A DNA stretch of 64,000 nt, counting the filler, from Stramenopiles sp. TOSAG23-3 (Eukaryota), in NCBI GenBank assembly GCA_900128585.1. It is 10 parts of 10 records of this genome, joined end to end, with 100 filler letters (N's around TTAATTAATTAA, not from the genome) between each part and the next. Parts side by side here need not be neighbours in the genome. Positions count along the whole stretch, not along the records: positions 33,129 to 44,026 come from LT642773.1; 9 more parts are not named here. One strand, 5' to 3'. Below, one piece after another: positions 23,639 to 43,883 of the stretch (position 1 is the stretch's first letter; each line of letters opens with the position of its first letter). The notes beneath the pieces were generated by a model, which did no database searches, was not told the DNA's origin, and saw only the letters and a list, made by a program, of their open reading frames with translations. Made by a program: the position numbers and the translations under genes.

Positions 23639-24244
23639 CGTTAATATAACGTTTCGTCCTCCCTTACAAATCCTTTTTACTGCCTTTCTCTCTCTGTTTC
23701 TCTCTCTTTACTCGTTACAGACTCTTTACGTCAACTACTCCCATTTTTTTAAAGAGTTGCATAAAAATGATCGCATATATTTGTCAATGAATTTTTCTCG
23801 CCTTTTTTGCTTTGTCTCCTCGTCGCCGCCGCGTTTGTTTGTTATTTATATTTTTTTTTACTACAAAAAAAAAATTATTACAACATATTGTACTTGTAAT
23901 ATTTACTACCTATATATGTTGGTATAGTAAAAATAAAATATTAACCCTACCTGTGCTGACGCTCGCTATAAAGCTAGTTTAATAATAATACCGGTAGTAC
24001 GAATGCATTTTCCTCGACTGAAGAAGTTCTTTCTTATAGTTGTTGTGAGAGTTCTTCTTCTTATTATAATAATAAAAAATAATATTTTTAGACGGCGCTC
24101 GCTGCTCGCTCACTCAGTCACAGTCAAAATATTAATAATGATAGAAAAGTTAAATTCATCGCCCCCCTAGGAAGGCATGATCATCGAAATCATAGGAGGT
24201 TTGCATAATCATCGTCTCAATTGGCCGCTTACTTTGTCTTTGAT

Positions 24245-25294
24245 ATGCCTAAACGAAAAAGAAAACCCTTAGTTGCGTTTGTGTTTTGCTGCAATGATGA
24301 GACTGAGCAAGAGTGTATAGACCGGTCTCTCTTTGGTGGCCGCGACGGTTTGTGGAACAATTGTGTTGGAGAAATTGTTCCCGGAACACCTTTACTGCTG
24401 TACAACGTTGACTCGAAAATTTGTCGAGGACCATATCATGCTGCCAGCGAGGCTGACGAGTGGGAACCAGATGCGTGGAATGGCGAGTTCAACGTCCAGG
24501 TGAAGGTGCAAAACGCAAGCACAGCGCAATGCAGGTCCTTTGTTGTCAACCCACGTCAACTGAGGCTAAACGGGAAGTTGACAGCAGTTAAATACGAGAA
24601 AATTCTCAACGATCACCTCTCTCCACCACCAAAGAAAAGGCTAGCTGCTTTTGTGTTTTGCTGCAACGACGAGACTGAGCAAGAGTGTTTTGACCGAGCA
24701 CTCTTTGGAGGTTACGAAACTGGGTTAGTACGGCAAGGGGTTGGCTTCGTGGAACCTGGATGCCCCTTACTCTTGTACAATACAGACTCCAAAAAATTGC
24801 GGGGACCTTACTTTGCTGCATCGACCGCGGGAAATCACGTACCAAATGCATGGGGCGGCCGCTTCTCTGCACAAATCAAAATCGATGCGTCACAGGGTTG
24901 GAAGGATGTGCGCGAGGTCACTGTGGATACATCCGAATTTAGAATAAACAACGGAAAGCTAAATAAAAAACGATATCTTAAAATATCCAGACATTGCCTT
25001 CAGTTCAACCCAATTGACAAGCTATCGACGATTCGCAAACTGGCGGGCAAGATGGGCTTAGTTGAAGTGTCCTGCAACCTTAGAAGCTGTGTCGCCGCCT
25101 TCAAAAACGGAGATGACGCACCAGTACCATGCAAATTTGAGATTTATTTTACAACTGGGACCGTGAAAACATGTATCAATCACCCCAGGCTGGGAAAGAC
25201 GCAGCTGTTTCGCAGAAATGTGGGTTTGGATGAGCTTAAAGCCATATTCGAAAACCCGCGTCGCCATACCAAAAAAGGGTATCGTAGAAGGTAA
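24245..25294 (+). CDS. Protein with two tandem DCD domains and a C-terminal NPRxHT domain
   Basis: Two copies of FVFCCNDETEQECxDRxLFG...PGxPLLLYN...GPYxAAS...PxAWxGxFxxQ; C-terminal YFTTGTV...HPRLGKTQLFRR...FENPRRHTKKGY. Confidence 0.8.
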   Translation: MPKRKRKPLVAFVFCCNDETEQECIDRSLFGGRDGLWNNCVGEIVPGTPLLLYNVDSKICRGPYHAASEADEWEPDAWNGEFNVQVKVQNASTAQCRSFVVNPRQLRLNGKLTAVKYEKILNDHLSPPPKKRLAAFVFCCNDETEQECFDRALFGGYETGLVRQGVGFVEPGCPLLLYNTDSKKLRGPYFAASTAGNHVPNAWGGRFSAQIKIDASQGWKDVREVTVDTSEFRINNGKLNKKRYLKISRHCLQFNPIDKLSTIRKLAGKMGLVEVSCNLRSCVAAFKNGDDAPVPCKFEIYFTTGTVKTCINHPRLGKTQLFRRNVGLDELKAIFENPRRHTKKGYRRR

Positions 25295-26704: not shown

Positions 26705-29700
26705 ATGAAGGGTGAGAAACGTGCAAATCTAGGAGGAAGAAAGGCGCACGATGCCTGCGCAAGTGCGCTGGCGAAGAGGCCGCAGTCGTTAGGACGAGTG
26801 CGCGGCGGGGACGGCTCGGTGTTTGGGCGGCAAGGCAGGGCTGCTGCGAGAACGAGCTTTTGCACGAAGCGGGCCTCGTTGCAGTGGCTTTTCGCTTTGA
26901 TGTTTGCGCTGGCGGCTGGGATGCCTTCTGCATTCGCGGAGGAATGGAACTGCTCGGCTACAGAGGGAACGTATGTGCGTTCAACGGACTGTACGATGAC
27001 CGACGAAGTTAAAGTTTCTGGAGACCTGACGGTGACGGGAAAAGAGAACATATACACGACTCTTTTTGCTGCCGCTGGGAAGAGGCATTTTAAGATCACC
27101 ACTGGGATACCTGCACTAAGATTGAAATGGTTGAACCTGACCGGTGGGGACGTCAGTGGTAATAGTTGTTGCATTGACAATAATGGTGGCTCCATTTACG
27201 TTTCTCACGTAGCCGCCCATTTGAACATATCCCATTGTGTCTTTTTCAATAATCGTGCTGGTTACGGTGGTGGTGCTGTTTATGCTTATGGTGGACAACC
27301 TCATCTTTTTTTCTCTTCCGTTTTGTTTGAGACCAATATTGCGAGTAGTATTGGAGGTGCGGTGTATTTATGGAATGGAAGATTCCAAGGAAAGGCGAAC
27401 ACGTTTAATAACAACACAGCAGTGTGGAATGGTGGTGCTATGTTCATGAACTCTCCTTCTGTCGTTTCCTCCACTGACTCCACTTTTCTAAAGAATACAG
27501 CAGGGAGAAGAGGTGGTGGTATTTATATCCAAGGTAATTTATTGGAAGGAAAGCCTTCTCAATTAAATCTAACGAGGGGTTTGGTAGAAGAGAACAAACA
27601 AAAACAAACAAAAGGGGGGACAGATGGTACTTATGGTGGGGGTGGAATTTATTTTAAACATGGAGTAACTGCGAATATTAGAGAGAGCACCTTCATAGGA
27701 AACGAAGCAACGACAGGATCAACAGGAGATAAGCATGGGCACCAGATTATGACGCATAAAGGTAGTTCCGAGATTCCCTCCATCGCAATTGTCAACACGA
27801 ACTTTACCGACCTCGCGGGATCTCATCCCTTCTACGGGCACGATGACAGCAGTTCCACCCACGGTGCAGCCAAATACGTAAGCCCGACGAACTGCACCTC
27901 CAACCCCTGCACAGCCCCACCTTTCACTGGCAGCTGCTTCCCCCGCGCCTCAGAACAGCAGGGTGTTTTCTGCGACTACGACAACTCCATTGCCTGCGCT
28001 GTGGGATCGTACAAGCAAAGTGTGAGTACCGCCAATGCCTTGCCCCCGGCAGAAACCGCCTGCGCGGCATCGAAGCCGAAGTGGGACTGCACCCGAAGCG
28101 CCGGAGAATTCCAGCGAAGCACGGACTGTACGATGGGAGACGAAGTTGATGTGTCGGGGGACTTGGTGGTGACGGGGAACGAGAACACGTATACGACACT
28201 TTTTGCTGCCACAGGAAAGCGCCATTTTAAGATCACCAGTGGCGCGCATACGCTGAGATTGAAATGGTTAAACATGACCGGTGGGGACATTACTGGTAAC
28301 AGCGGAGACAACGCAAAGGGTGGTTCCATTCATGTTTACAACAAAACTGCCCATTTGAACATATATCATTGTGTCTTTTTCAATAATCGAGCTACGTGGG
28401 GTGGTGCTGTTTTTGCTGATGGCGGATATCCTACTCTTACTTTTACAAATGTCCTGTTTGACTCCAATGATGCAATTTATGGCGGGGGCGCGTTACGAAT
28501 ACATGGCAAGACCGGCTCCACCGTCCGTTTCGTTGGCAGCGTCCTTCGAAATAATTCATGCGGAGTAGTGGGGGGTGGAATGGACGTCTCTGAGAGCAAT
28601 ATTATCATCATTCGGACGATGTTCGAACAGAATGTCGTTCGATCAACAGCAAGTGCGCCGTATTTTAGTGGTGCTAGCGGTGGTGGCGGTGGTGCCATAG
28701 CAATCCAAGGCAACGGAACTGGCATTGAGAATTGCTCGTGGATTTCATCCGTTGCAGCTAACGCGGGGAACAGAGAAGCGTTCTTTTACCCCGTAGAAAA
28801 TGCATTAAGCAGTAGCGGTCACCCTGCCATGTGGAGACATGGTACACCTGATAGTAACCTTTTGTTTCAATGCCAAGTTCTCCCAGCTAGCGTACGGACG
28901 GTCACTGTATCGTTGCCCTCAGCAGCGAAATGTTCAAATGTGCCCAATTTGCACACTGCACCGAGTTGCACAAATATTATTTTGAAGGGTGCAGACGAAT
29001 CCACGGTGTGGACTTCCGGCGGGAGTTGCGCAAACGCGGGCGATACTACGACGTTTGATGTTGACAGCATCGCGCAAGCTCACTTCATTGGAGTGTCGTT
29101 TTCGGCGACTGAAAGTACATGCGGCGACTATGTTGCGGGTATTTCATACTTGACGTTGACAAAGGAACAAACAGTCCCAACACTGCTAATTGAAAACTCC
29201 ATCTTTCTGCAAAATAGAGCTCGCAATTTCATTGGCCATCAGATCATGGCTTACGCCGGCATCATCAGCAAACATTTTTGTCATGTCACATTTGACAATA
29301 TTACTGAATCAAGCCCTAATATGTTGCCATTGGAGGTAGGGTTGAGCTCAGACAGCAACTGGGAGTACAATAAACCTTTGAAGAAAGTTACTACTACTGG
29401 TGCATATTCTACGACACTGTTTGGGCTGAACCAATATTTCAAAACCAACATAACATTCTCTCAATGCTGTGATCCAAGTGCTGCCTTCGTTGGAGTGCAG
29501 ACGGCACCAGCCACAACTGACAATAAACACGGTGGCACAAGCATAAATGGAAATGGGGTTCCTTACCAGTACCCTTGGCCTCAAGACAACGGAGTGCATG
29601 CTATTGAAATTGATATTCGTGACACAAAGATAGTATTTGATGGCAACTCTGAAGCATTGGGCTGGGGAAGCGAAAATAGTGCTGAACTTGCTCCGTACGG

Positions 29701-32700
29701 CGCGCCTTTGTTCTTCGGCGTATGGGACAGCGCCAGTGCAAATGGCAGGACAGCGGAGTTGCAATTTTTATCGGTCAAAATTATATACGATTACGACAAC
29801 AATATCTGGGGGGGCATGGTTGATACCGCAAACCATTTGCTTCCAGCAGAAACTGCCTGCTCATCGAAGTGGGACTGCAATCGAAATTCTGGCATCTTTA
29901 ATCGCACAGAAGACTGTCAGCTTGGCGACGAAGTGGCAGTAAGTGGCGATTTGAGCATTGAGGGGAAAGAGAACACATACACGACTCTTTTTGCTGCCGC
30001 TGGGAAGAGGCATTTTAAGATCACCAGTGGGCCGCACACGCTGCGGTTGAAATGGTTGAATATGACAGGTGGGAATGTCAGTGGTAATAGTGGTGGATTA
30101 ACTGACTATGAAAATAGTGGTGGTTCCATTTATGTATATGGCGTAGCTGCCAATTTGAATATATCCCATTGTATCTTTTTCAACAATCATGCCGAAGGTA
30201 GCGGGGGTGCTGTCTATGCTCATGATGGACAACCTAATATATTCTACTCGTTTGTTTTATTTAAAGCTAATTCGGCTGTCAAAGATGGAGGAGGGATTAT
30301 TTTATTAAAAGCATCCTACATTGGAATATCCAATGTATTCAACGGCAATACAGCAAGGTATGGCGGTGGGATAGCCATTCATTACAGTAAGGTGTCTTGT
30401 ACAAAATCTTCTTTTATATACAATAGAGCAATGAAAATGGGTGGCGGAATTTACATTAGAGGTGATTCCTCTAATGGTGCGTCGAAAGTAAATTTAACCC
30501 AATTAGAAATACGAGAAAACAAACAAACAAGTGAGGGGACAACCAATTGGTATGGGGGTGGTGGACTTTACTTATACTGGAAAGTGGCTGTTGATATTAG
30601 AGAGTGTAACTTTGTACGAAACGAAGCGAAGGCAAACACAGATGGGGAGAAACATGGGCATCAAATTATGACGCTTTATGGTAGTTCCTTGATACCCTTT
30701 ATCGCAATTGTCAACACGAACTTTTCTGGCCTTGCGAGAGACCATCCCTTTTACGGGCGGCATTATACCAGCTCATCCTATCCGAGCAGCAGTGGCGCCG
30801 ACAAATACGTAAGCCCGACGAACTGCGCCTCCAACCCCTGCACCGCCTCACCCTTTACTGGGGCGTGCACAGCCCACCCAATGGGCCCAAAGCGTGGCGT
30901 TCTCTGCGACTACGACAACGCCACCACTTGCCCGATTGGCTTTGACAAACGGTTGCCGCCTTCCGACCCCCCGACATGTCTTGAGTGCCTTATCCCCACC
31001 GTAGGAACTGTAGAGAGAAGTGCTGACTGCCAGCTGGGCAGCGAAGTGGCAGTGAGTGGCGATTTGAGCATTACGGGGAAAGAGAACACGTATACGACTC
31101 TTTTTGCTGCTACTGAGAGTCGGCATTTTAAGATTACCAGTGGCGCGCACACGCTGAGGCTGAAATGGCTCAATATGACGGGTGGGAATGTTGGGAGCAG
31201 TGATAATGGTGGTTCCATTTATGTCTACAACGTCGCTGCTCATTTGAACATATCCCATTGTGTCTTTTTCAATAATCGTGCCAGAGATGGTGGTGCTGTT
31301 TATGCTTCAGATGGACATTCTACTCTGCTATTCTCTTCTGTATTATTTGAATCCAATACTGCAATGTTAAATGGAGGTGCGGTGTATTTATACAGAGGAA
31401 CCTTTCATGGTGAATGGAATACATTTAAAAACAATACAGCAGGGCAGTTTGGTGGTGCGATGCGAATTTCTGTCGGTACTACAGCAGCAAGTACTGGTTC
31501 TATTTTTAGAAAGAATACAGCAGGATTATGTGGAGGTGGTATTTGGATCATTGGTGCTTCCCCCCTCTCTTCTCGATTGAATCTAACAAGGGTTCATTTG
31601 ATTGAAAACAATCAAACAAATGGGGGGGGAGATGTTTATTATGGTGGGGGTGGACTTTGTTTATGGCAGGGTATAAAAGTGAATATTAGAGAGTGTACAT
31701 TCGTACACAACGAAGCAACGATGGGAGCAAGTGGGGGGAAACATGGGCATCATATTACGACGACTAAATCTAGTTCCGACATTCCCTCCATCGCAATCGT
31801 CAACACGAACTTTACGGGCCTTGCGGGGGACCATCCCTTCTACGGCTACAATGGGAGCAGCGGCGGCGCCGAAAACTACGTAAGCCCAACGACCTGCACC
31901 TCCAACCCCTGCACCGCCTCACCCTTTACTGGAGAATGTTCCGATATGAACACCGGCGTCCTATGCAGTATTGCTAGCGATTACAGCCCGCAGTGCTCAT
32001 ATGGGCAAGTGAAAGCAACCGTCTCTAGAGCCCTGTTGCCCCCACGGCTTTGCGTGTGTCCAGAAAACACATACTTGAACGACTCGGTCTGCACGCCTTG
32101 TAAAAATGGTACCTTTACACGTTTTCCCTCCAGCATATTTGGAAACGAAAACCACGATCACATTTCAGACTGCCTCCCGCCGCCAATGATCCATAACATG
32201 ACACCGGAAAGCCCTGTGCCCAACAGCAGCACCGCCGTATCCTTTGCGGGAAATTTTGACGGGACTGTCATCGACTTGACCATGGGACTCGGCCAGTGGA
32301 CCAGCATCACAAGAATATCCCCCACAACAATCACGGCCGTACCGCCTCAAGGGATTACTGGGGAATTCTACTCACTCTACCTGACCGTAGACGGCATCCG
32401 AGCCACGGAGGCCTTTAATTTCTCCTACAGGGCTCCAAACATAACAGAAGTAAACTCCCCACCCTTCGCCGGAGGAACGGTCAAGATTCTTGGTGAGCAT
32501 TTCGGGTCCGCCCTAGACGAGATAAAGATATCCGTCTCTGGAGAGGGTGCCTGCCCCGTCCCCTGCGGAGAAACGCAATGGACCGAAGGCGGGGTTGCCT
32601 GCCTCTACGATGCTCCGGGTTCACAGGGCGTAACTATGAATGTCCGCCTCACGGTCGGCCCAGAGGGGCACGAGCAGCCGAGCAACTTGGCCACCTACCA

Positions 32701-33028
32701 ATACAAATTCGACAAGGGCACACTCACAGGCATACCGGAGGGACGGCAGCGCATCACCGAAGGCGCCAACCTGACCTACCGGTTGAGCTTGACCAGCAAC
32801 ATTGTTCCGAAGGATGACAATGTAACAGTGCAGCTCACAGCCTCTGGCTGCACCATAGCTCCGACGGATCTCACATTCTTAGTAAACCAAGAAGAGACGT
32901 ACTCGGTCATTATCAGTACCACCGACAACAAAGTGGACGAAGGAACGGTCATCGCCTACTCTTGCACCATCACCCACACAATCGAGACGACGGACCGGCA
33001 GTACAAAGACAATTTGCCGAGAGCCTTA
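26705..33028 (+). CDS. Giant secreted/surface protein with Pmp-like GGA/FxxN beta-helix repeats in four modules and IPT/TIG-like domains; 3' truncated by contig end
   Basis: >2100-aa ORF; signal-like LFALMFALAAGMPSAFA; many FxxNxA..GGAV/I repeats; four SGDL..GKENxYTTLFAA..RHFKIT..LRLKWLN modules; FSYRAPNITEV..GGTVKILGEHFG. Confidence 0.85.
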
Positions 33029-33129
33029 NNNNNNNNNNNNNNNNNNNNNNNNNNNNNNNNNNNNNNNNNNNNTTAATTAATTAANNNNNNNNNNNNNNNN
33101 NNNNNNNNNNNNNNNNNNNNNNNNNNNNC

Positions 33130-34191
33130 GAAAGATTTCCAAGTGGACCTGTTGGCGAAAGAATTGATTGGGACGCCGTGGAAAGGGTCGTGGGGAAGAA
33201 AGCGGCGTACCAGATGAAGCAAGGCGAGGGGTTCACGGGAGGGTTGAGTCTTAATGCCAAATCGATCACCGCTGAAGGCTTGAGAACAATCGCTCCGGCC
33301 TTAAGAGCAATGTCAAACTTGATGGGGCTTTATTTGTCTAGAAACAATATTGGAGAGGAAGGCTGCCGAACAATCGCTCCGGCCTTAAGAACAATGACAA
33401 ACTTGGAGAACCTTTATTTGGGTGACAACAATATTGGAGATGAAGGCTGCCGAACAATCGCTCCGGCCTTAAGAACAATGCCAAACTTGAGGTGGCTTAA
33501 GTTGGATAACAACAATATTGGAGAGGAAGGCTGCCGAACAATCGCTCCGGCCTTAAGAACAATGACAAACTTGAAAAGGCTTTATTTGCATGACAACAAT
33601 ATAGGAGAGGAAGGCTGCCGAACAATCGCTCCGGCCTTAAGAGCAATGCCAAACTTGACGCACCTTTCTTTGTCTAGAAACAATATTGGAGAGGAAGGCT
33701 GCCGAACAATCGCTCCGGCCTTAAGAGCAATGCCAAACTTGACGCACCTTTCTTTGTATAACAACAATATTGGAGATGAAGGCTGCCGAACAATCGCTCC
33801 GGCCTTAAGAACAATGCCAAATTTGGAGGGGCTTTATTTGGGTAGAAGCAATATTGGAGAGGAAGGCTGCCGAACAATCGCTCCGGCCTTAAGAACAATG
33901 CCAAACTTGAAGGAGCTTAATTTGTCTCACAACAATATAGGAGATGATTCCATTGCTGTCCTGTGTAGTAGGGTTCTACCAGAGACATCGTTGGGATTTC
34001 TTAATTTGTCTTATAATAAGATTGGTAATGTTGGTTGTCAATCTCTTCTTGAGTTATTTAATAATGGTTCGTTGCGATCATTGAATAGACTTAGGTTGTC
34101 TTTTAACCCCAATATCTCATCTGAATTAAAAGAAGTGTTCGAAAGAGATTGGAAGGCAAAAGGAATGAATCCGGATTACTTAAAAATTTAA
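33130..34191 (+). CDS. RI-type leucine-rich-repeat protein (28-aa repeats), 5' truncated
   Basis: Frame open from the contig start; eight 84-bp repeats MxNLxxLxLxxNNIGxEGCRTIAPALRx beginning at 33310. Confidence 0.92.
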   Translation, partial: ERFPSGPVGERIDWDAVERVVGKKAAYQMKQGEGFTGGLSLNAKSITAEGLRTIAPALRAMSNLMGLYLSRNNIGEEGCRTIAPALRTMTNLENLYLGDNNIGDEGCRTIAPALRTMPNLRWLKLDNNNIGEEGCRTIAPALRTMTNLKRLYLHDNNIGEEGCRTIAPALRAMPNLTHLSLSRNNIGEEGCRTIAPALRAMPNLTHLSLYNNNIGDEGCRTIAPALRTMPNLEGLYLGRSNIGEEGCRTIAPALRTMPNLKELNLSHNNIGDDSIAVLCSRVLPETSLGFLNLSYNKIGNVGCQSLLELFNNGSLRSLNRLRLSFNPNISSELKEVFERDWKAKGMNPDYLKI

Positions 34192-34609
34192 TTAACTTTT
34201 TTCATATTTTTAATTTAAATTCCTTTCTTCTTCTTCATTCTTATTCTTTCTTCTTTTTTTAATTTATTAAAATACTATATCAAATAAGTATTCTAAATAG
34301 TATATTAAGTATAATATTCGTTCTATAATATTACATTTTATTAAAAATAACAAAAAGAAACCATCNNNNNNNNNNNNNNNNNNNNNNNNNNNNNNNNNNN
34401 NNNNNNNNNNNNNNNNNNNNNNNNNNNNNNNNNNNNNNNNNNNNNNNNNNNNNNNNNNNNNNNNNNNNNNNNNNNNNNNNNNNNNNNNNNNNNNNNNNNN
34501 NNNNNNNNNNNNNNNNNNNNNNNNNNNNNNNNNNNNNNNNNNNNCCAGTGTCTCTTTACACCAACCACTTTGTCTCTCTCCGTGCATGTGTAATATTAAG
34601 TAAGAACGG

Positions 34610-36121
34610 ATGGCAGAGCAGACGGGCAAAGCGACCGGTAAGCGGCGGGGTTGGTCCAGTGGTTCGTCTCCCGAGCACGGGGAGGAGGGCAGGGAGATGG
34701 GCACAGACAATAGTGAAAGCCGCCACCGCTCAAAGTCTGCAAAATTAACGCCCCGAATGACGGCAGTGTCGAGCACGGCAACCCCGGTGTACCGGTGCGT
34801 CGGGGCACCGCCCCCGTGTGTGAAACGGTTGCAGACGATGGACTTTGGGGCACCGTTTCGAGACCTGTTTGTGCTGAAGCACAGTCTGGGAACGGCGTAC
34901 TTGAACCACGGCAGTTTCGGCGCAACGCCAAAGGTTGTCTTGGGAAAATTACGCATGCTAAACACGCAGTTAGAGGAACACCCGGACCAATGGTTTCGTA
35001 GAACAGTAGTCCCGATGGTCCGCCAGTCCGCTGCGGAGTTGGCAAAGTTTGTCCTGGCCGACAAGAGTGAGTTAGTATTTGTGGAGAACGCCACCACGGG
35101 CATAAACGCGGTGATTCGGTCCTTGGAGCTGCACGACAACGACGGGGTGCTTTGTTTTTCGCTCCACTATCGTCCTATCCTGACAACGTTGCGTCGGACG
35201 TGCGAGTACAAGCAGGAAGTCATCGATTTGATAGAGATGGACATCCCTTACCCGTTTCCTGCCCCGCAAGAGCTCGTCGATATGGTGGAGCTGGAACTGA
35301 AGCGCTCTCCGCACATTCAGCTCGCTGTATTCGACCACATCACGTCCCCGACTAGCTTAGTTCTTCCTGTCAAAGCGCTTTGCGAAGTTTGCCACAACCA
35401 TGGGGTCGAAGTTTTGGTTGATGGCGCGCACGCCCCGGGGCAAATCCCGTTGAGCCTGAGCGAGTTGAACGCCGACTATTACGTCGGGACGTGCCACAAG
35501 TGGCTGTTTTCACCGAAAGGCTCGGCCTTTCTTTGGGCCAGGCGTGAGGTGCAGAATCTCCTTTGTCCCTTGGTGACTACTACTGGGTGGGACAGCGATT
35601 TCGTCGATTCATTCTCTCACCAAGGCACGAGGAACGCGACCGCGTTCGCGTGTGTTGCAACGGCCCTGCGCATGTATAATTTCATGGGCGTTGAGCGTGT
35701 CATGAAACGTAATCGGGAGATGGTCATTGAGATGGCCCAGCACTTGGCCACGCTGTGGGGCACGCAGACTATGCTGCCGTACAACGCGCCGGAGCAAGCA
35801 GGCGGGAAGGGGAACAACGATGAAAGCGAGGATGATTTTTCCGGTGCGCCGACATCGTACGAAGGAGCCTTTATGGCGTGCATTGAGCTGCCGCCGCAGT
35901 TGGCGTTGAATTTTCTGAACTGCGGTGGCCAGCATGACATGCAGTGCGATCGGTTGCGGGACTTGCTGCTCTCCCGCTTTAATTTGGAAGCTTCCGTCAT
36001 TTTCTATTTTCAAACGAAAATGTGGGTACGAATAAGCTGTCAGGTGTACAATGTAAAAGCAGATTACGAGCGACTTGGCGAAGCGATTGCTACGCTGACA
36101 GGTGAAGTGGACACGGTGTGA
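34610..36121 (+). CDS. Class V PLP-dependent enzyme (isopenicillin N epimerase / Egt2 / L-cysteine desulfhydrase-like)
   Basis: YLNHGSFGATP, ENATTG, DHITSPTS, VDGAHAPGQ, TCHKWLFSPKG and WVRISCQVYN. Confidence 0.88.
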   Translation: MAEQTGKATGKRRGWSSGSSPEHGEEGREMGTDNSESRHRSKSAKLTPRMTAVSSTATPVYRCVGAPPPCVKRLQTMDFGAPFRDLFVLKHSLGTAYLNHGSFGATPKVVLGKLRMLNTQLEEHPDQWFRRTVVPMVRQSAAELAKFVLADKSELVFVENATTGINAVIRSLELHDNDGVLCFSLHYRPILTTLRRTCEYKQEVIDLIEMDIPYPFPAPQELVDMVELELKRSPHIQLAVFDHITSPTSLVLPVKALCEVCHNHGVEVLVDGAHAPGQIPLSLSELNADYYVGTCHKWLFSPKGSAFLWARREVQNLLCPLVTTTGWDSDFVDSFSHQGTRNATAFACVATALRMYNFMGVERVMKRNREMVIEMAQHLATLWGTQTMLPYNAPEQAGGKGNNDESEDDFSGAPTSYEGAFMACIELPPQLALNFLNCGGQHDMQCDRLRDLLLSRFNLEASVIFYFQTKMWVRISCQVYNVKADYERLGEAIATLTGEVDTV

Positions 36122-36398
36122 GAGTGGCAAAACGCACCATTTTGATAAATACAAGAGAAATAAAAGGGGGGCAAACGTTTATTGAGAAGCTTTCAGTCCC
36201 CGCTTAAAATTTAAAAACCTAAATTAGATATATCATTAATAAAATTAATGGCATTATAAAATAAAAATCACCTATTTATTATGTTACACGTTAAATATTC
36301 ACATTTTTCACATAAATTTCAACAATTTGTTACCTCTTCTTTGTGTACGATACTTGAGTGCCACAAAGGCCCGCTTGCTCGCACGCTTTCTTAGACCT

Positions 36399-39300
36399 TC
36401 ACCTTCGATAATAGGACTGCGCGTAGTACTGGGGAAAGGCGCGCGACGCTTCTTGTCCGGCAAATACTGCAACAGGGGACCCTTCGTTGTAGTATACAGC
36501 GCCTTGGAAGGCACCATTGCTCATTGCAAGGTTTTGTTGCGGGGGCGACTGGGAAGTAAAATACCCATTGTCGCCGATGTTGTAGGGTTGTTGGGACTGT
36601 GCAGGAAGTCTTCCGGCAGGCGGGACCGGGTTCCCTTTGTGCCTTGGAGAATAGGAATAGCCCGGTTGAACGGTGCTGTGATGGGACCCCATCGAATCAA
36701 ACCCGGCGTCGCCTTTCCGGTTGCCCATTTTTCTAGTTTTCGCCCCACCCTTTCCCATTGACGCGTAGCTTTTGGCCCCATTACGCCTTGCCCCAGACGG
36801 CGACATGGTGTTTTTCTTCCCGGCCATCCGCTGCTTTCGCGCGACTCGTTTGCTCGGCAAAGCCTTGCGCAAGACGACTTCGGCCCTCTCGTCTTGGTAT
36901 TCCCCAAGAAGCAGGGCCTTTGTTCGCTTCAGAACGTACATTTGCCTGCTCTTCTGGAGTACGGCCAAGCGATCTAAATCGTCCAGGCTCAAGTTTTTGA
37001 CGGTTGCGATTTGATGGATGGAGCGCAGCTCGCGGCGTACGTCCTTGTCCAAACTTCGTATTTTGTTGTTGCGCTCTTCCTTCTCGGCCTCTATTGCACT
37101 CAACCCACCTGCTTGCTTGGGAGATTCAGTGTTGATCGTCTCAGCGCTCTGGGCCAACGCGTTGCCGCCAGGCAGGCTGTTCTGGGCCATCCGCTGACTC
37201 TCTTCTATGGCCTTCTGGTGCGTCGTCGGCTGCAACTCGAACGAAGGGCCGGCCAGGGGGGTCCTGCGGTTCATGGATATCAAGTCGTCGTACGTTTGTT
37301 CTTCTGCCCAATCGATCGCTTCGTTCAAAAGGTCTTTCAATGGGGCGCTGACCCATTGGTTGATCATGTTCTGCACCCGCTTGCACGCCGCTACCTGGGC
37401 CATGGGGTCGAGCGAGTGAAGGTTGGTGGATCGCATGCAGTTCCCTCTGCGTGGCCGGCGGCAAGCTTCGAAGAACCCGTCGGGAACGGGCGGCCATGCG
37501 CTCCTTCTGGGTCAGCCCTGTGCGACTGGCAGAGAGGGAATTGGTCTGGGGAGCAGACCCTTGGGGCATCGTCGCTGACCCCGGGCCGTCCTCGAACTGT
37601 TGAAACTTTTCGAAGGATTCCTCCATCGGGGACATTTGCGAAGCCTCTATCGGTTCCATTTTCAACGGTTCTAAATTTATTACCTGCTCCACGTCTTCCA
37701 TCTCGGCCGATTCGACGTCGAGCGAGGTGAGGACTTCTTGTTTTCGGGGTGGCTCCAGCTGCCCTCGAGCAAGGCGGGGGCTCGGGTTGGGCGGGGCCGG
37801 GCTTCGCCGGGGCGGTTTGGGGGACCGTCGCACCGAGGGCGACCCCCGTGGTTTTCTCGGGGAGTTGTTGCCCCCCAACGAACTCCGGCAGTAGTCTTCA
37901 AATTCCGCCTGGACGACCCGCCCGTCCCCGTTCTTGCTGATGAACCGAGACAATTCCCTGGCCTCTTGCGGGGTCATCGTGGTAGCCCCTAGGAGTTTGA
38001 AGCCTTTCAAAATGTCTTCCGGGCCCACCCACCCCCGGTTTCCACGGTCCATCTTTTTCCAGACTCCCCGTATTTTCTGAGTTTGCTTGTACACCCTCTG
38101 CCTGGACTCTTTCTCTCGGGTGCTCGCCCGCTCCTGCCTTCCGCGTTGAATGGCCTGGATCCTCACCGCCGCATCCTCTCGTTCCTTCAAATCCTTTCGT
38201 TCCTGTCTACCGCGTTGGGCCGCTTGTATTTTTCGCGCCGCGTCCTCCTTGTCCCTCAACTCCTCTCGGGTCTCCCGCACTCGATTTCGTTCTTGTTTTC
38301 CCCTTTGGATGGCCTGAATCTTCGTGGCCGCTTCCTTCCGTTCTTTCAACTCTTGTCGAGCTTGCTTCCCACGGTGCGCAGCTTGGATCTTCGTGACAGC
38401 CTCGTCCTGCGGCATCCCTTGCGAATTGACCGTCTTGATCGACCTGCTCCTCGTCGGACTTTTCTGGACGGCTTGGTGCTCTTGCGCTATCAGCTGCCGC
38501 CGGGCATGGTCGATGTGGCGAAAGCAAAGCCGCATGGGCCGTTTGCTTTTTTGGATTTTCTTTACAATTTCGGCGATTTGAAGGCCCTTCACCGACTCGC
38601 CGGACACTGCCGTGATGATGTCCCCCACGAGCAACTCTTTGCACTCGCTTGCCGCCCCCCCCCCCCTTAATGTTCATGACGTGCACGACGTTCTCCATGT
38701 TTGGGCCCTCTTTATTTTCTCTAAATGTCAGCCCAAGGGGGCCAGCCTGAAATTCGTGGGTGATCTTGCTCGCCGTGCTCCAGTTGTCGACCAGCGCTTC
38801 GTATAGGTTGATCAGCTTGGGGTTGAAGGGCGACTTTTTTGCAAATTTTACCCTCGCTGGCCCGTCCAGGGCCCGCATCATTGCAATGCCCCCTTGGAGC
38901 CACTTTACAAACTCGTCGCTGTCTATGGTCCCACTGTGATCGTCGTCGATCATGTTCATGAGTTGCTTCAGCTCCGTCGGACTCTGGGGCAGTTCCAACC
39001 CTTCGTTTGCGAGCATGTGCGAGGCCGCGGTCACGAGGTCCTTCAACTGGTCTATGCCCAGCGGCTTACCATCATCTCGACTGCTCGTTTTCCTGCCGCT
39101 GAGGTGGTGGGCGGACGTAAATATTTCTTCGACCTTTTCGTTCGAAGGCTCGAGCCACCGTAGAACGGACTCCAATAAATTTATAAACCTGGAGTGCATA
39201 GGACTCTTTTCGGCAATCTTGCCCCTCTGTTGTTTCGACTTTGTCGCACCGTTCGACAGCCACGCAATGAACTCGTTCTCGTCGATTAAATTATTCCCGT

Positions 39301-39511
39301 CCCGGTCCAAGAACCGAAGCACCGTTTTGACTTCCTCCTTGGACGGCAACGACAGGCCAGGGTTCTGGGTCGACATTTCCCTTACCATAACCCGGAGCTG
39401 CGCCTCCCCGATCATATGCGTCTCATGGTCCGCATACTCATAGAACAGCTCATGCGTCAACGCTTTGGAAGTCGCCGCAGCAATCGAAATCCCCACGGAC
39501 GCGTCCACCAT
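36399..39511 (-). CDS. Large EF-hand/PDZ/IQ protein split over three frames (frameshifts at ~38655-38666 and ~37420)
   Basis: EF loops DRDGNNLIDENEF and DDDHSGTIDSDEF; PDZ GPLGLTF...VGDIITAVSG spans a G12 run; four IQxxxRGxxxR motifs; helical repeat continues into ORF 36399-37436. Confidence 0.75.
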
Positions 39512-40240
39512 GATGATGTCGAGAATGCTTCCACTCCAATCAAATGAAGGTTTAATTCAAATGGAATCAACAAACTAAGAAAATAAGAAACAAATAGACA
39601 AACGCACAACCGCACGACACAAAAAAGCGTTTTCAATCATTTATTTTATTGCAAGTAAACGTCTAATGACTCATCATAACTATCAATCATTTCCATCTCA
39701 ATTCTAAAAAATGCCAAAACTCGGCAGAAGAAAGGGAAAAATTAAAAAGAATAAATTTTTTTATTTCAACGAAAAAACTATATTTTAACAAGTACAACTA
39801 TATCATATACTAATAACTATAATACCTATCAAACAGATATCCTTCTCTTGAAACCACCATGTCTAAAAATAGATTGAGATTCGAAATATTCTTTTTATGA
39901 AAATAAAGTTCACCCTATCAAATAAAAATATAAATACGAATAAATCGTATAGTAATAATATACTACGACAAAACAACGAAGAAGAGAAGGAAGGATGAAA
40001 AAGTTTGACATAATCGAAGAAGACAAGAGTTTAAGTTTAAGTCAATTTTGGTGGATCGATCATCACAATAAAATAAATGGACTGTTTTATTATGAAGATG
40101 TGTTCTGTTTAGAGTTCATTGTTTCATTTGAATAACAAAACACGTTGAAAAGAGGTTTCATTGCGGTTTTTCTTTTTGTTTTAAGTTTGGTTGTGTGTGC
40201 ATAGATATTTAGTTTATACTTGTAGTTGTCGTATTGTTTT

Positions 40241-42888
40241 ATGCCGCCAAAGCGAAGCCCTCTTGGGGGAAAAGGTGGACCACCCCCGCCAAGAGGACGG
40301 GGACCCCCGCGTGGTCTTGGGCCGCCAAGAGGGCTGCCCCCACCGCCCCCAGGCATGCAAGCTCGGCCGCCACGATCGGGTGGACCACCACCCAGGCCTG
40401 GCGCAATGAAAAATGCCAACATTGCGTCGAACGACAACGCGCACAACGAAAAGGTTTTGAGGCGAATGCTGCAAGGCCAAGCATAATTCCAGCTGCCGGG
40501 GACATTCCTGTGTTTTCTGAGCAGAAGATGCTAAACATGACGACCCAGGAACGCACCCAGCCGTCCTGGTTGAGTAGCCTTTTGGAGCTCGACGAATCGT
40601 CCCAGCTGAGTGTTGTCAGCATGGTGATTCAAACGGCCAAATCTGCGACTCTGACAGAAACCCGTGCGCCCTACATTGATATGGTCTTGAAAATGAAGCA
40701 GAAACTGCTGGGAAAGAACGCAAAAAAGATCCGCAACATGATAATGGAGGCCAAGAAAGACCCGTCGAATAACAAATTTAGCCGGGTCATCACGGTGGCA
40801 GAGTTTAAAGTGTGGGTGCAGAAGTATCACCTGTGCCACCGCGGGGACAGCAAACACGTCGAAGCGTTGTACGGCGAGATCAGCGCTCGGTACAGCGAAA
40901 AGCGTGGCGGGATCACTTTGGAGAAGCTCTTAAACTACTTGTCCCGCTTCAAAGAGACGACAGCGTACCTTAAGGACGCGGACAAGTCGGTCTCGCAGCT
41001 GTTTGACGACGCCATGCACCGTGAGAAAAACGCGAACAAAGGTGGGCGGCACGAAAACATCGTTCCCTCGGCATGGGAAATCGAGCAGAGGAATCGAATT
41101 ATTGCCGGGCTGCCGATTGAGACGAGGAAATCATTGCGGGACATCCATGACGAGTTTGGGCTGTCAAACCTGCGCGGGGAGGACACCGAAAGAATGTCCG
41201 CGCTCCCGGTGGCTGTACAGAAGAGCGTCTGCGAGAGGTGCACCAAGCTGATGCGCAGCGCGAATTACGATCACTTGGACCACACCGCCAGGCAAGTCCT
41301 ACTGTTTGCTTTGACGAAGGCCGAAACGAGCATGAAGAGCCAAGAAGAACGGGAAAACAAACTTTTCATGCCCAGCGGAGTCACAGCGATAGAAAAACTA
41401 GAAACCCAGCCTTTGCCTGCTCGAAAAAAGACAATACGAACGGAAAATCGCACTGCGAGGGAGCGCCTCAACGACCTGTCGCAGCCGAAAAATAAGTACG
41501 TGCCGCGAAAAAAGAAGCAGGAGCCTTGGGAGAGACGCCGGGAGAGGCAGAAGAAACAGGCCTCGGGGAAGCGGGGGTTGCGCCAGCGCCGGCGGCAGCA
41601 CAAACAAGGATACGGCGACCCAAAGCGGCGGGAAAGGGGACGAAGAAGACGGCGCAGGAGACATGACCAGCAGGAGCCTGGCGGGAAGGGGTACGGATCG
41701 TTTGGGGAGGACTCCTACGAGTCGTTCGAATCGTTCGACGACGACACGGACGGAATGGACAGTTACGAGGAGGATGACGGCTACGCCCCCACCAACCAAC
41801 GGCGCCAGCGTGGTGTGAACCGACACAAGAAGCAGGACACGCGGCATTACCACGCCCGGATCCCGACCCCGCCCGAAGCGAGCATGGCGAACCAAAAGCA
41901 ATCGCAGCCGCGCAAAGCTCGCCGGGTGGTGCAGGGGCAAGGGGGGCAGGAGAACCCAAACCGGCGCCGGCAACGAAAGCATTTGAGGGACAGTATGGGC
42001 GCGCACCACAGCAGCGTGGTTCCGGGCTGGTACTACAGTCCACGGCACGACCAGCACGTCTCTACCATCTACATTGACCCGAGCCGCCCGGACAAAGAGC
42101 TGGACTTTTGGGAGGAGAACACAGAGGCAACGAACCTTCCAATGCCACCGTTGGCACGGCATGGCTACCAGCAGCAGATGTACTCCGTGGGTCTTCCGCA
42201 GACGACCGTGGTGCAGCCACCGTTCCAAGAATCGATCGTGCAGTTTCCCCTCCCTTCGCAGCCACAACAGGCTGGGTACTCTGCCCAGGTTCCAATGGCG
42301 GTCCACCAGGGCCATGCGATGGTCGCACCGGCGAAGAACAGCACCATGGCGAGAAGGGGGCGCCACGGCGGGCGCAAAGGGTCGCACGAAAAGATAGGGG
42401 CCGCACAGCGTCACATGGACTTCGAGCGTCGACGGATGGCCCGGGAGCGACGGCGCCAGGCGCGGGATGCGAAGAAAGGCATTGCGCCGAGACCAATCCC
42501 GCCCCCTCAACCTGGCTGGACGATGGGAAACAGCGGCGGCGGCGCCCTTCTTCCCCCGCCAAGCGATCCCCCCCCGGGAGACTTGCCGATGGTCCCTCCG
42601 GTAACACTAGGGACGGTCGTGCAAGGGTACCCTACGGTTCAGGCCCCAGTACCGACTGGTGCGGGCGGGGGCTACTCTACCATGGGAGTCCCGATGGGAT
42701 TTGCGCAGCAGGCCCAAACTTTCCCGCCCCCCGTGCCGGTGGCGCCCGTGTTTCAGACGTACGCCCCGATGGAAGCCCAGGTGCAGGCCCAGAACGGCCA
42801 CTTTAATCCTCCGGCCCAGCCTCCCGACTTTAGCGGAGTAATTTTGTTCACGAATGGGGAAGCGGTCGCCATGTACGATTCGAGCTGA
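40241..42888 (+). CDS. Pro-rich protein paralogous in part to the 36399-39511 gene; probable 1-nt frameshift near 40480
   Basis: MPPKRSPLGGKGGPPP frame ends at 40486 and coding continues in the overlapping frame; shares the DSMGxHHS..YSPRH and C-terminal motifs with its neighbour. Confidence 0.72.
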
Positions 42889-43275
42889 GAATAGCATGTA
42901 TAATCCCTTCAATAAGATAATCTTAAATTTACCGTGGAAACAAATTTCTGTTAGTAAGAAGTCTTATGTTAACGTAAGACATCATATGGTATCTTTACTG
43001 TACTCTAATTATCGCACTGACGCATTGTATTAAAAATAAATAATTTGTTGTGTTTAGTTGTAAAAATATTTTTATTTACGAGTATGTTAAAAATGTCTTA
43101 GTAATTCTCGTCGCAACCCTGACCCCCACCTAAAAGCCTCCACGGCGCCGCATCCTCATTCCCGGTGCTCCCTTCGCCTTGTGGACACAAGCGGACTTCC
43201 CCCCTACCTACCAGCGGGTACGAGGGGGGGTCAGCTGTCGAACAACAATATCCTTTGCAGGGATTCCCCACACGC

Positions 43276-43883
43276 TTACGCCTCCCCCAATGGGCGCGCG
43301 GCGGCTTCTGGGTCAAGTTTAAAGTGTTGTCCACAGTCTGGGCATACGGTCGCTTTATCTCCACCTTCAACCACGAACCAGCGCAACCAAGTCGGGGCGT
43401 CCGCCGTACAGCCTCCTACACAGCCAACAATCCTGGAGCTCAGGCTGTTGTTGTTAAAAAAAGAAATTATAAACGTGCAATTGGTTAGTAACGGCGCGAT
43501 TCAATCTAGAAAGGAAGAGAGGGAAAGGTAAGGGCAGGGGCTCGCCGCACATTCGTCGTCACGGACTGGTCGCCGAGAGGGAACGTGTACGTGTGTGTGT
43601 GGGCGGGGGGGGGGGGGGGCGGACTGTTCGGGATAGAGAGTTATACGTACGCTGATGGGATCATAGTCGGGTCGTCCTTTGTACCAATAGAAGGGACCCA
43701 AAGCATAGAACGATTAAACCTTTCGTGTCCTTGGACTTCTTCATCCAATTCATCCTTGCGCAAACCAGTCGCTTGCTCAGAATCGCCTGGCAAACGCCCA
43801 GTGACACCAGAAAAGCACCTGGCTTGTTTTGGAAGTTTCACTAAACTACGGGCTGCTCGAAGCGAAGAAGCAAAAAGTGCCAT
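43276..43883 (-). CDS. COX5B: Cytochrome c oxidase subunit 5B; two exons (43883-43651, 43444-43276)
   Basis: Mitochondrial presequence, QATGLRKDEL and GTKDDPTMIPS; a GTACGT..TACTAAC..CAG intron joins in frame to ALSSRIVGC...WF...CPDCGQHFKL zinc motif. Confidence 0.9.

What the first reader, a model, noticed from the sequence alone, without database searches (positions are those of the whole stretch)
33310..33950. LRR array with frozen DNA framework and shuffled hypervariable surface codons (immune-receptor-like)
Seen: eight 84-bp units. GAAGGCTGCCGAACAATCGCTCCGGCCTTAAGA is identical in seven units and synonymous change is almost absent. The five x positions of LxxLxLxxN vary radically: MG-Y-SR, EN-Y-GD, RW-K-DN, KR-Y-HD, TH-S-SR, TH-S-YN, EG-Y-GR, KE-N-SH. 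Variable codons recur in new combinations; unit 7 mixes GAG/GGT of unit 2 with GGG/AGA of unit 1. Established: these positions form the concave ligand-binding face, as in VLRs, plant NLRs and brown-algal ROCO LRRs. Inference: a recombination/gene-conversion-diversified recognition protein without introns, possibly antiviral or prey-sensing. The N-terminal effector domain is lost at the contig edge.
Basis: partly seen in the sequence, partly recalled or inferred. Interest (0 to 1): 0.75.

Follow-up and report, generated by a model that had tools for sequence, protein, structure and literature searches.

The report
Hypervariable LRR module of a protist kinase
A marine protist gene ends in eight almost identical leucine-rich repeats that differ only at five exposed residues each, and it belongs to a small family that joins this fast-evolving binding module to kinases, metacaspases and other enzymes.

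Summary
Eight in-frame 84-nt units (33280-33951) share a frozen DNA framework. Variation sits in codons 15, 16, 18, 20 and 21 of each unit: 14 of 15 x-codon bases vary against 5 of 54 other bases (P=1e-9).

The repeats are ribonuclease-inhibitor-type LRRs (Pfam LRR_6; AF2 pLDDT 95). The x residues lie on and beside the inner beta-strand.

The gene is cut at a true scaffold end. Its first 26 residues equal the kinase-to-LRR junction of a relative, so the missing part is probably a protein kinase, not an NTPase or ROCO domain.

Relatives carry the same capped module with 1-8 units. It follows kinase, kinase+ART, metacaspase, U-box/ankyrin, PX or ubiquitin-like domains, and none has a NOD domain.

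Between paralogues, synonymous divergence is 0.23-0.37 in the flanks but 0.07 in unit frameworks. At x codons, minimal changes are 25 nonsynonymous to 1 synonymous.

I read this as germline concerted evolution plus diversifying selection, as in fungal NLR repeats and brown-algal LRR-ROCOs. I found no sign of codon or cassette shuffling or of a somatic programme.

The order and number of the eight units is not verified, and an immune role is inferred only. I class it as a new variant of a known kind.

The parts
33130..34191 (+). 3' part of a protein-coding gene: 353 codons plus the stop at 34189-34191. It is cut at the 5' end by the scaffold end at 33129.
   Evidence: ORF and translation. Pfam LRR_6 9.4e-38. 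AF2 pLDDT 95.4, pTM 0.91.
33130..33162 (+). Tail of the missing N-terminal part (ERFPSGPVGER). Together with the next 15 residues it is identical to the kinase-to-LRR junction of relative P0013, and it is near-identical to that of P0001.
   Evidence: The loose end upstream of 33132 in the organism-A contigs reads, by my hand translation, as the P0001-type end of the kinase domain (table 7).
33163..33279 (+). N-terminal cap of the LRR module (IDWDAVERVVGKKAA..SITAEG): two short helices and a first degenerate strand. The boundary at which relatives switch to unrelated N-terminal domains lies at its start.
   Evidence: Helices at residues 14-21 and 23-30, strand at 38-40. Junctions of relatives. 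Loose ends at 33164-33169.
33280..33951 (+). Eight 84-nt (28-codon) ribonuclease-inhibitor-type LRR units with a frozen framework. The hypervariable codons are 15, 16, 18, 20 and 21 of each unit, i.e. unit offsets 43-48, 52-54 and 58-63.
   Evidence: Model strands at residues 66-68, 94-96 and so on correspond to unit positions 16-18.
33943..34188 (+). C-terminal cap (DDSIAVLCSRVLPE..NKIGNVGCQSLLELFNNGSL..NPNISSELKEVFERDWKAKG..): two degenerate LRRs and a closing helix. This is cap type A of the family.
   Evidence: The same cap occurs in P0001, P0002, P0005, P0006, P0131 and P0132. Cap-only search.
34192..34365 (+). A+T-rich 3' flank with a T/C-rich low-complexity stretch (34207-34268). It ends at a 179-N assembly gap (34366-34544).
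   Evidence: Covered without differences by contigs of RNA libraries (table 8).

Best explanation
What it is. This is the C-terminal recognition module of a soluble, intronless enzyme-LRR fusion protein of a marine protist. Here the enzyme is most likely a protein kinase.

The module. It is a self-contained, capped ribonuclease-inhibitor-type LRR horseshoe with three parts: a conserved N-cap, a variable number (1-8) of near-identical 28-residue units, and a conserved C-cap. The five variable residues of each unit line the inner beta-strand and the loop after it. They set what the module binds. The fused enzyme then acts on, or is switched by, the bound partner. In relatives that enzyme is a kinase, metacaspase, ADP-ribosyltransferase or U-box ligase.

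How it evolves. The family evolves in the germline in three ways:
- Unequal recombination and gene conversion among the 84-nt units, within and between paralogues. This keeps the framework homogeneous down to synonymous sites, changes unit number and swaps whole modules between N-terminal domains.
- Strong diversifying selection, which fixes replacement changes at the five exposed codons.
- No programmed or somatic mechanism is needed.

Shown here: the fold class, the position of the variable residues, the excess of replacement change, the homogenised framework, the domain partners, and presence in RNA libraries.

Inferred: that the missing domain is a kinase, that the x residues bind ligand, and that the family serves non-self or biotic-interaction sensing (my odds about 0.35-0.4).
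For: Fold. Pfam LRR_6 9.4e-38. PDB sequence search gives ribonuclease inhibitor 3tsr_E at 3.5e-60, then NLRP and NOD2 LRRs. AF2 pLDDT 95.4 with one strand per unit at unit positions 16-18. Foldseek top hits are RNase inhibitor, NLRP3, NOD2 and NLRP14.

Variation:
- 14 of 15 x-codon bases vary against 5 of 54 others, P=1e-9.
- Across 49 units, entropy is 1.95-3.34 bits at x positions and at most 1.2 elsewhere.
- All 19 'other letter' rows (18 places) that paralogous contigs of 4 runs show inside the array fall in x codons.

Selection, not mutation or age:
- In 13 DNA units from 3 genes, minimal changes at x codons are 25 nonsynonymous to 1 synonymous. The binomial P is 0.004 against my assumed 26% synonymous share.
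- Codon 20 always ends in T.
- The interleaved Leu codons 14, 17 and 19 (TTG, CTT, TTG) never change.
- x-codon pN is 0.48-0.56 against framework pS 0.06-0.07.

Concerted evolution:
- Window versus L001 and L004: linker pS 0.34-0.37 and cap pS 0.23-0.37, but unit framework pS between genes is 0.070, about the same as within genes (0.064).
- Different synonymous codons are used at different framework positions, yet each is fixed in all units. Codon bias therefore does not explain it.

Module swapping. P0005 and P0019 are identical through 123 residues up to the start of the N-cap. They then carry different arrays (2 versus 1 unit) and different cap types.

Partners, by Pfam: Pkinase in P0001, P0006, P0131, P0132 and P0022; ART in P0022; Peptidase_C14 in P0133 and P0135; PX in P0002; U-box in P0019; ubiquitin-like in P0008.

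Kinase inference. 26 residues are identical to the P0013 junction.

Solubility. No 19-residue hydrophobic window above 1.9 outside LRR cores in 20 of 21 relatives. The exception is the aberrant tail of P0013.

RNA. Contigs of two metatranscriptome runs from one study cover the 5' and 3' parts with 0 differences.
Against: - DNA-level tests rest on only 13 units from 3 genes, which may come from different strains. No likelihood site model was run.
- No contig spans the array. In the two organism-A runs it breaks into pieces of about 90-120 nt, and 84 of 192 pieces in X1 fit two places, so unit order and number in the window are unverified.
- The RNA runs give no cover for 33381-33842 in X3. X4 shows only a paralogous unit-4-like piece there. 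RNA libraries can hold DNA.
- The family is small in public data. Roughly 30 proteins carry the module. Only 12 of the 150 listed hits of a cap-only search match most of the cap in one or two stretches. That is modest for an immune repertoire.
- No ligand, phenotype or induction data exist.
- The immune reading is guilt by association with the partner domains.
- Selection on the DNA or RNA itself could also lower framework pS.
Confidence: 0.6

Rival explanations
1. Endogenous targeting adaptors, not immunity. Each paralogue's LRR face has specialised on a different cellular partner or substrate, as in F-box-LRR proteins. It steers a kinase, protease, ligase or ADP-ribosyltransferase in ordinary signalling. 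The x-site variation records past subfunctionalisation, not an arms race.
For: - RI-type LRRs are general intracellular protein-binding modules. PDB hits include RanGAP1, axonemal LRR proteins and FBXL2 as well as NLRs.
- The family is small.
- Partners such as PX and ubiquitin-like domains are not death or immune domains.
Against: - A framework pS of only 0.07 with near-saturated replacement change at x codons implies recent and continuing turnover, not old settled specificities.
- Close gene pairs still differ in unit number and in most x residues: L001 and L004 have linker pS 0.04 and cap pS 0.07.
- Metacaspase, ART and U-box partners are typical of conflict systems. That point is recalled, not tested.
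Confidence: 0.25
2. The eight-unit array in the window is an assembly chimera. Short reads from many paralogous units with identical 60-nt frameworks were strung together, so its order and length are artefacts. The family pattern itself would still be real.
For: - In both organism-A runs the region is a tangle of short pieces, many fitting two places, and no record spans it.
- The gene sits on a 1237-nt piece between a scaffold end and a 179-N gap.
- No relative has more than 5 units.
- One RNA contig joins 33344 to 33849, skipping exactly 6 units (table 5).
Against: - Zero-difference pieces cover every one of the 30 bins in X1 and X2.
- Independent assemblies give 5-unit arrays (P0001, P0002) with the same design.
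- Units 5 and 6 share codons 15-18 and differ only at codons 20, 21 and 26, which looks like a true tandem duplicate.
Confidence: 0.25
3. Programmed or somatic diversification. This could be VLR-like cassette assembly, or an enzyme that mutates the five codons, so that single cells or clones differ.
For: - The capped-LRR design with a variable number of inner units resembles lamprey VLRs (recalled).
- Variation is extremely focused.
Against: - Third bases of the x codons stay frozen unless they change the residue, and the interleaved Leu codons never change. That is the mark of selection, not of a local mutator.
- No cassette recurs among 52 units.
- Complete, different genes with different N-terminal domains exist in separate assemblies, as a germline family would give.
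- No incomplete germline gene and no flanking cassette bank was seen in the 64-kb window.
Confidence: 0.03
4. Relaxed constraint. The exposed residues simply drift because they do not matter.
For: Exposed beta-strand positions of LRRs tolerate most residues (established knowledge of LRR folds, recalled).
Against: - Drift cannot give 25 replacement changes to 1 silent change, nor an x-codon pN about 8 times the framework pS.
- The residues used are enriched in Y, W, N, D, H, S and R. I recall this as typical of binding surfaces.
Confidence: 0.03

Closest known systems
Highly internally conserved repeats of fungal NOD-like receptors: Podospora het-d/het-e/nwd WD40 family, and ANK/TPR/WD in many fungi (Paoletti 2007, PMC1805685, abstract read; Dyrka 2014, PMC4986451, passages read)
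   Same: - Near-identical repeat units within and between paralogues (concerted evolution).
- Variable unit number.
- Positive selection at a handful of surface positions per unit.
- Combinatorial swapping of N-terminal effector domains.
   Different: - The repeats here are LRRs, which Dyrka et al. did not find in fungal NLRs.
- No NACHT or NB-ARC domain occurs in any family member seen.
- No RIP.
- Mean unit identity here is 75% at protein level, below their 85% cut-off.
Ectocarpus LRR-ROCO and LRR-kinase candidate receptors (Zambounis 2012, PMC3341825, passages read)
   Same: - LRR arrays of variable length.
- Positively selected residues on the concave face.
- Proposed as pathogen receptors of a non-plant, non-animal eukaryote.
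   Different: - There the LRRs are 24 residues, one 72-nt exon each, shuffled as exons and joined to ROC-COR.
- Here they are 28-residue RI-type units in one intronless ORF, varied by in-frame recombination and joined to a kinase, metacaspase, ART or U-box.
Ribonuclease inhibitor and the LRR domains of animal NLRs (NLRP3, NOD2)
   Same: The same LRR class and horseshoe fold: 3tsr_E at 3.5e-60; Foldseek probability 1.00 and TM up to 0.80.
   Different: - Those repeats are old and diverged, not DNA-identical.
- NLRs carry a NACHT domain.
- This module has its own conserved N-cap and C-cap.
Lamprey variable lymphocyte receptors (recalled; cited within PMC3341825 and PMC3417536)
   Same: A capped LRR with a variable number of inner units and hypervariable concave residues.
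   Different: - VLRs are assembled somatically from cassettes, are secreted or membrane-bound, and have cysteine-rich LRRNT/LRRCT caps.
- Here it is a germline family, soluble, with helical or degenerate-LRR caps, and no cassette reuse.
Enzyme-LRR fusions in which the LRR selects the target: F-box-LRR ligase subunits and bacterial LRR-E3 effectors (recalled)
   Same: An LRR fused directly to an enzyme or ligase adaptor without a NOD domain. FBXL2 is among the fold hits.
   Different: - The LRR is C-terminal here.
- The partner set is much wider.
- The units are homogenised with hypervariable faces.

Membership tests
Ribonuclease-inhibitor-type (RI-like, Pfam LRR_6) leucine-rich repeats | 28-29-residue units LxxLxLxxNxIGxxGxxxLxxxLxxxxx that match the LRR_6 model | tested here: met
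   LRR_6 at 9.4e-38, 125.7 bits against a cut-off of 23.4. 28-codon period.
Ribonuclease-inhibitor-type (RI-like, Pfam LRR_6) leucine-rich repeats | Horseshoe with one short inner strand and one outer helix per unit | tested here: met
   AF2 pLDDT 95.4 with alternating E3/H12-13 elements. Top Foldseek hits are RNase inhibitor, NLRP3 and NOD2.
NLR / STAND receptors (NACHT or NB-ARC plus repeats) | A central NOD (NACHT or NB-ARC) ATPase domain | tested here: not met
   The window gene's N-terminus is missing. None of the 20 relatives scanned had NACHT or NB-ARC. None of the module-bearing proteins in the precomputed lists had one either. P0136 (NACHT, 42% identity to the cap) lacks the family cap over its full length.
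ROCO proteins | A ROC GTPase plus COR tandem next to the LRRs | tested here: not met
   No Roc or COR family in any relative. The junction residues match kinase-LRR relatives.
Repeats with high internal conservation, in the sense of Dyrka et al. 2014 | Over 85% identity between repeats over at least 100 residues | tested here: not met
   Mean pairwise unit identity is 75% at protein level and 86% at DNA level over 224 residues. The framework alone is near 100%, and the five x positions cap the total.
Repeats with high internal conservation, in the sense of Dyrka et al. 2014 | Concerted evolution between paralogues, and positive selection at a few surface positions | tested here: met
   Framework pS 0.07 against flank pS 0.23-0.37. 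25 nonsynonymous to 1 synonymous changes at x codons. The sample is small.
Lamprey-type VLR | Somatic assembly from flanking cassettes, and cysteine-rich LRRNT/LRRCT caps | tested here: not met
   The caps are helices and degenerate LRRs. There is no further copy of the unit in the 64-kb window and no reused cassette in 52 units. Somatic variation itself is not testable with these tools.
Protein kinase-LRR subfamily of this module family | A Pkinase domain directly upstream of the ERFPSGPVGE-IDWDAV junction | tested here: inconclusive
   The junction is identical over 26 residues to P0013 and near-identical to P0001, both of which have a kinase domain upstream. The window's own upstream DNA is absent. 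An RNA contig extends 438 nt upstream, but its letters are not available.

The most novel reading that the evidence does not exclude
A NOD-less innate recognition repertoire in an uncultured or poorly studied marine protist. Capped RI-type LRR sensors are fused directly to execution or signalling enzymes: kinase, metacaspase, ADP-ribosyltransferase and U-box ligase. New specificities arise by the mechanism known from fungal NLR repeats, that is, homogenised units plus selection at a few face residues, here applied to LRRs for the first time. Binding of a viral, parasite or prey protein would switch on the fused enzyme, in the metacaspase members perhaps leading to cell death.
Probability: 0.3. 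Interest if true: 0.8.

Novelty: new variant of a known kind. Interest (0 to 1): 0.55.

Why it matters
Little is known about how free-living marine protists recognise viruses, parasites or prey. This family gives a concrete and compact candidate.

- It is a soluble binding module whose specificity-determining residues can be read off the sequence.
- The module is attached to enzymes with assayable outputs: kinase, metacaspase, ART and E3 ligase.
- It is present in sea-water RNA libraries.
- It would extend the 'homogenised repeat plus hypervariable face' mode of receptor evolution from fungal WD/ANK/TPR repeats to LRRs, and to proteins without a NOD domain.
- The near-ideal consensus framework is also a natural counterpart of designed repeat-protein binders.

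If the rival reading holds (ordinary targeting adaptors), it is a tidy but unremarkable lineage-specific family.

Tried and rejected
- Organism name: no tool gave one. Cluster look-up gave no names, run organisms are coded, and a search with the urea transporter returned only unnamed metagenome proteins.
- Non-coding RNA: Rfam and tRNA scans of the window found nothing.
- Frozen 27-mer elsewhere: 0 matches in viral contigs and 0 in the prokaryote genome contigs. There is thus no sign of a viral or bacterial carrier in those collections.
- Metagenome scan: 28 loci were returned, but only L001 and L004 carry the same framework. The others (L002, L003, L005, L009, L011, L012 read) are other RI-type arrays with their own, less uniform frameworks.
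- Cap-only search of 1.84 billion representatives: mostly generic multi-LRR proteins, so it is of little use as a family count.
- Protein Atlas: only generic RNI-type clusters.
- Earlier-notes look-ups: by place and by sequence they returned nothing.
- Kinase class: PDB hits are generic Tyr/TKL-like kinases, so no specific class could be assigned.
- RNA cover: X3 has no cover of 33381-33842, and X4 shows there only a paralogous unit-4-like piece (record 25, 33511-33624, 7 differences). A hole proves nothing.
- Recombination inside the variable core was considered and rejected.
- Codon bias as the cause of the frozen framework was considered and rejected.
- Literature: five searches turned up no paper describing this family or metacaspase-LRR fusions in protists. 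Choi and Berges 2013 (PMC3734836) shows 0 occurrences of 'leucine-rich repeat' in its search listing. Subscription journals are not covered.
Full report
**Setting**

The window is not one locus. It is a string of whole scaffolds joined by artificial N44-TTAATTAATTAA-N44 linkers. The finding lies at the very start of scaffold 33129-44026, on a 1237-nt piece that ends in a 179-N gap.

Long intronless ORFs on both strands, with eukaryotic domains, show an intron-poor protist. These domains include HECT/WW, TRAF zinc finger plus ankyrin, a DCD domain and a cyclic-nucleotide phosphodiesterase.

Public runs that hold the stretch are two small runs of a coded 'organism A' plus marine metagenomes and metatranscriptomes. 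No tool named the organism, and no whole genome is held.

**The observation**

TRF finds 7.9 copies of an 84-nt unit at 33284-33944. In the open frame from 33130 to the stop at 34189-34191, eight 28-codon units start at 33280+84k.

The per-codon table shows the following.
- Outside five codons, the only silent differences are AGA at codon 2 of unit 1, AAT at codon 13 of unit 7, and ATA at codon 24 of units 4 and 8.
- Codons 10, 12, 22 and 26-28 show a few replacements.
- Codons 15, 16, 18, 20 and 21 carry 4-6 different residues among eight units.

In columns 7-75 of the unit, 14 of 15 x-codon bases vary against 5 of 54 others (Fisher P=1e-9).

**What the protein is**

Pfam gives LRR_6, the ribonuclease-inhibitor type, at 9.4e-38. 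The best solved relatives by sequence are ribonuclease inhibitors (3tsr_E, 3.5e-60), followed by NLRP and NOD2 LRR domains.

An AlphaFold2 model built on a 36-row alignment has pLDDT 95.4 and pTM 0.91. It shows two short N-terminal helices, then eleven strand-helix turns. Foldseek puts RNase inhibitor, NLRP3, NOD2 and NLRP14 on top.

The strand of each unit covers unit positions 16-18. Positions 16 and 18 therefore flank the buried Leu17 on the inner sheet, position 15 precedes the strand, and positions 20 and 21 follow it. That these side chains face the concave, ligand-binding side follows from established LRR structure. I could not measure it on coordinates.

**The family**

A search of 5.8 billion proteins found relatives with the same three-part module.
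- An N-cap: DW[DN]AVE.VVGK.AA.QMKQGEGFTG.L.L..KSIT.EG.
- One to eight units: CRTIAPALR.M.NLxxLxLxxNNIG.EG.
- One of two C-cap types: ..LCSRVLPE..NKIGNVGCQSLLEL.NNGSL.., or ..LAVLSNVV.AIP..NKIGNVGCQCLLELIENDSLQSL...

What precedes the module differs, as confirmed by Pfam.
- Protein kinase: P0001, P0006, P0131, P0132.
- Kinase plus NAD:arginine ADP-ribosyltransferase: P0022.
- Peptidase_C14 metacaspase: P0133, and P0135 with EF-hands. The His and Cys motifs are visible in the sequences.
- PX: P0002.
- U-box: P0019.
- Ubiquitin-like: P0008.
- Ankyrin-like repeats: L001.
- Coiled coils: P0012, P0017, P0021.

No member has a NACHT, NB-ARC or ROC-COR domain. Twenty of 21 relatives have no transmembrane-like window. 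The exception is the aberrant tail of P0013. I saw no signal-peptide-like start in the N-termini printed.

**The missing N-terminus**

The window's first 26 residues (ERFPSGPVGERIDWDAVERVVGKKAA) are identical to the junction of P0013 and near-identical to that of P0001. Both of these continue upstream into a kinase C-lobe. By my hand translation, the 30-nt loose end just upstream of 33132 in the organism-A contigs reads as the P0001-type sequence (table 7).

Other loose ends at 33164-33169 are unrelated sequences. By my hand translation one of them reads as the junction of P0012. Paralogues in the same data set thus switch partner exactly at the start of the N-cap. I therefore infer a kinase, with odds of about 0.8. 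One RNA contig extends 438 nt upstream, but its letters are not given (record 24).

**Evolutionary mechanism**

DNA for the same framework was available from two metagenome loci, L001 (3 units) and L004 (2 units). Their units carry the identical frozen 33 bases.

Nei-Gojobori p-distances are as follows.

| Comparison | Region | pS | pN |
|---|---|---|---|
| Window vs L001 | linker | 0.368 | - |
| Window vs L001 | cap | 0.225 | - |
| Window vs L004 | linker | 0.342 | - |
| Window vs L004 | cap | 0.372 | - |
| Units between genes | 20 framework codons | 0.070 | - |
| Units within genes | 20 framework codons | 0.064 | - |
| Units, within and between genes | x codons | - | 0.48-0.56 |

The units are thus about five times younger at silent sites than the flanks of the same genes. 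This is the signature of exchange or homogenisation between paralogues. Codon bias does not explain it, because framework positions use different synonymous codons, each fixed: Leu TTA/TTG/CTT, Arg CGA/AGA, Ala GCT/GCC.

At the x codons of the 13 units, the minimal changes are 25 replacement to 1 silent. The binomial P is 0.004 against my assumed 26% silent share. The contrast with the framework (7 replacement to 4 silent) gives Fisher P=0.02. Codon 20 is always NNT, and the Leu codons between the x codons never change. A local mutator or old divergence would also have changed those bases, so selection on the residues is the simpler reading.

Independent support comes from read-derived contigs. 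All 19 difference rows (18 places) that paralogous pieces show inside the array fall in x codons.

**Recombination**

Among 52 units from 26 proteins, every five-residue combination is unique. Column shuffling predicts 0.16 identical pairs. The alphabets per position are small, for example Y/N/S at position 18 and S/Y/G at position 20. Unit 7's mix would need three switches within 21 nt.

Recombination is evident at larger scales.
- Unit number runs from 1 to 8.
- Units 5 and 6 look like a tandem duplicate that has since changed only at codons 20, 21 and 26.
- P0005 and P0019 are identical for 123 residues up to the N-cap and then carry different arrays and cap types.
- One RNA contig joins 33344 to 33849, skipping exactly six units. 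This could be a paralogue, an allele or a collapsed assembly.

**Caveats**

- No contig spans the array.
- In the organism-A runs it is a tangle of pieces of about 90-120 nt, so the order and count of the eight units are unverified.
- RNA libraries cover the 5' and 3' parts without differences, but not units 2-7.
- The DNA sample for the selection tests is small.
- The family is modest in size in public data.

**Comparison with what is known**

- The mode of evolution matches the fungal NLR repeats. In those, WD, ANK or TPR units are homogenised within and between genes, unit number varies, a few surface positions are under positive selection, and N-terminal domains are combinatorial (PMC1805685, abstract; PMC4986451, passages). 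That work found no LRRs in fungal NLRs. The proteins here have no NOD domain, and the 85% identity cut-off is not met (75%).
- Ectocarpus LRR-ROCO genes share selected concave-face residues. They use 24-residue units, one 72-nt exon each, shuffled as exons (PMC3341825, passages).
- Aravind et al. note that most eukaryotes diversify LRR receptors passively, by divergence in lineage-specific expansions (PMC3417536, passages). This case fits that view.
- Earlier notes of this scan describe the same 'frozen framework, variable face' pattern in phage and bacterial LRR genes, attributed there to ordinary recombination. These notes are unchecked leads.

**Verdict**

This is a real, well-defined feature: a fast-evolving capped RI-type LRR module on a probable kinase. 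It is a member of a small family of enzyme-LRR fusions in a marine protist that evolves by concerted evolution plus diversifying selection. It is a new variant of a known kind. The immune-like role is plausible but untested.

Noticed in passing
window 10960-11059, 22007-22106, 33029-33128 and eight more such sites: The window is a concatenation of whole scaffolds in decreasing length (about 10.9 kb, then about 1.7 kb). They are joined by N44-TTAATTAATTAA-N44 linkers, so neighbours across a linker are not linked in the genome.
   Followed up: yes
window 26705-33028 (+): An intronless ORF of more than 2100 codons, cut at the scaffold end. It has large internal repeats of about 500 residues, Chlamydia-PMP repeats and a right-handed beta-helix region. 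It is a giant, probably surface or secreted, beta-helix protein.
   Followed up: partly
window 48953-54976 (-): A 2007-residue protein with TRAF-type zinc fingers (2.3e-65) followed by many ankyrin repeats. This is another signalling or conflict-type architecture in the same organism.
   Followed up: no
window 24221-25294 (+): A protein with a Development-and-Cell-Death (DCD) domain (3.1e-30). I recall this domain as being known mostly from plants.
   Followed up: no
L001 4822-6597 (+): The ankyrin-LRR relative also carries three near-identical copies of a ~70-residue unit in its N-terminal part, so repeat homogenisation in this family is not limited to the LRRs. Just upstream (4120-4545) lies a long KERKK-type low-complexity stretch.
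   Followed up: no
L004 1082-1861 (+): Here the module follows a stretch that looks like a bacterial BatA/VWA-type protein (my reading of the sequence, not tested), on a contig whose record name states a coverage of 1.69. This may be an assembly chimera and not a true fusion.
   Followed up: no
L003 1020-1781, L009 2-352, proteins P0010 and P0016: A sister family, apparently from other organisms, has a similar N-cap and RI-type units with its own framework (CRHLA..L.EMKGL). It is less uniform than the window's. Each lineage seems to homogenise its own unit.
   Followed up: partly
window 37141-39511 (-) and 40234-42888 (+): On the same scaffold as the LRR gene there are overlapping minus-strand ORFs with IQ and EF-hand motifs. 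There is also an 884-residue ORF with no Pfam match.
   Followed up: no
protein P0013, residues about 205-259: This kinase-LRR relative leaves the family cap midway and ends in a hydrophobic tail (KD19 2.32). This looks like a frameshift or a truncated gene model.
   Followed up: no
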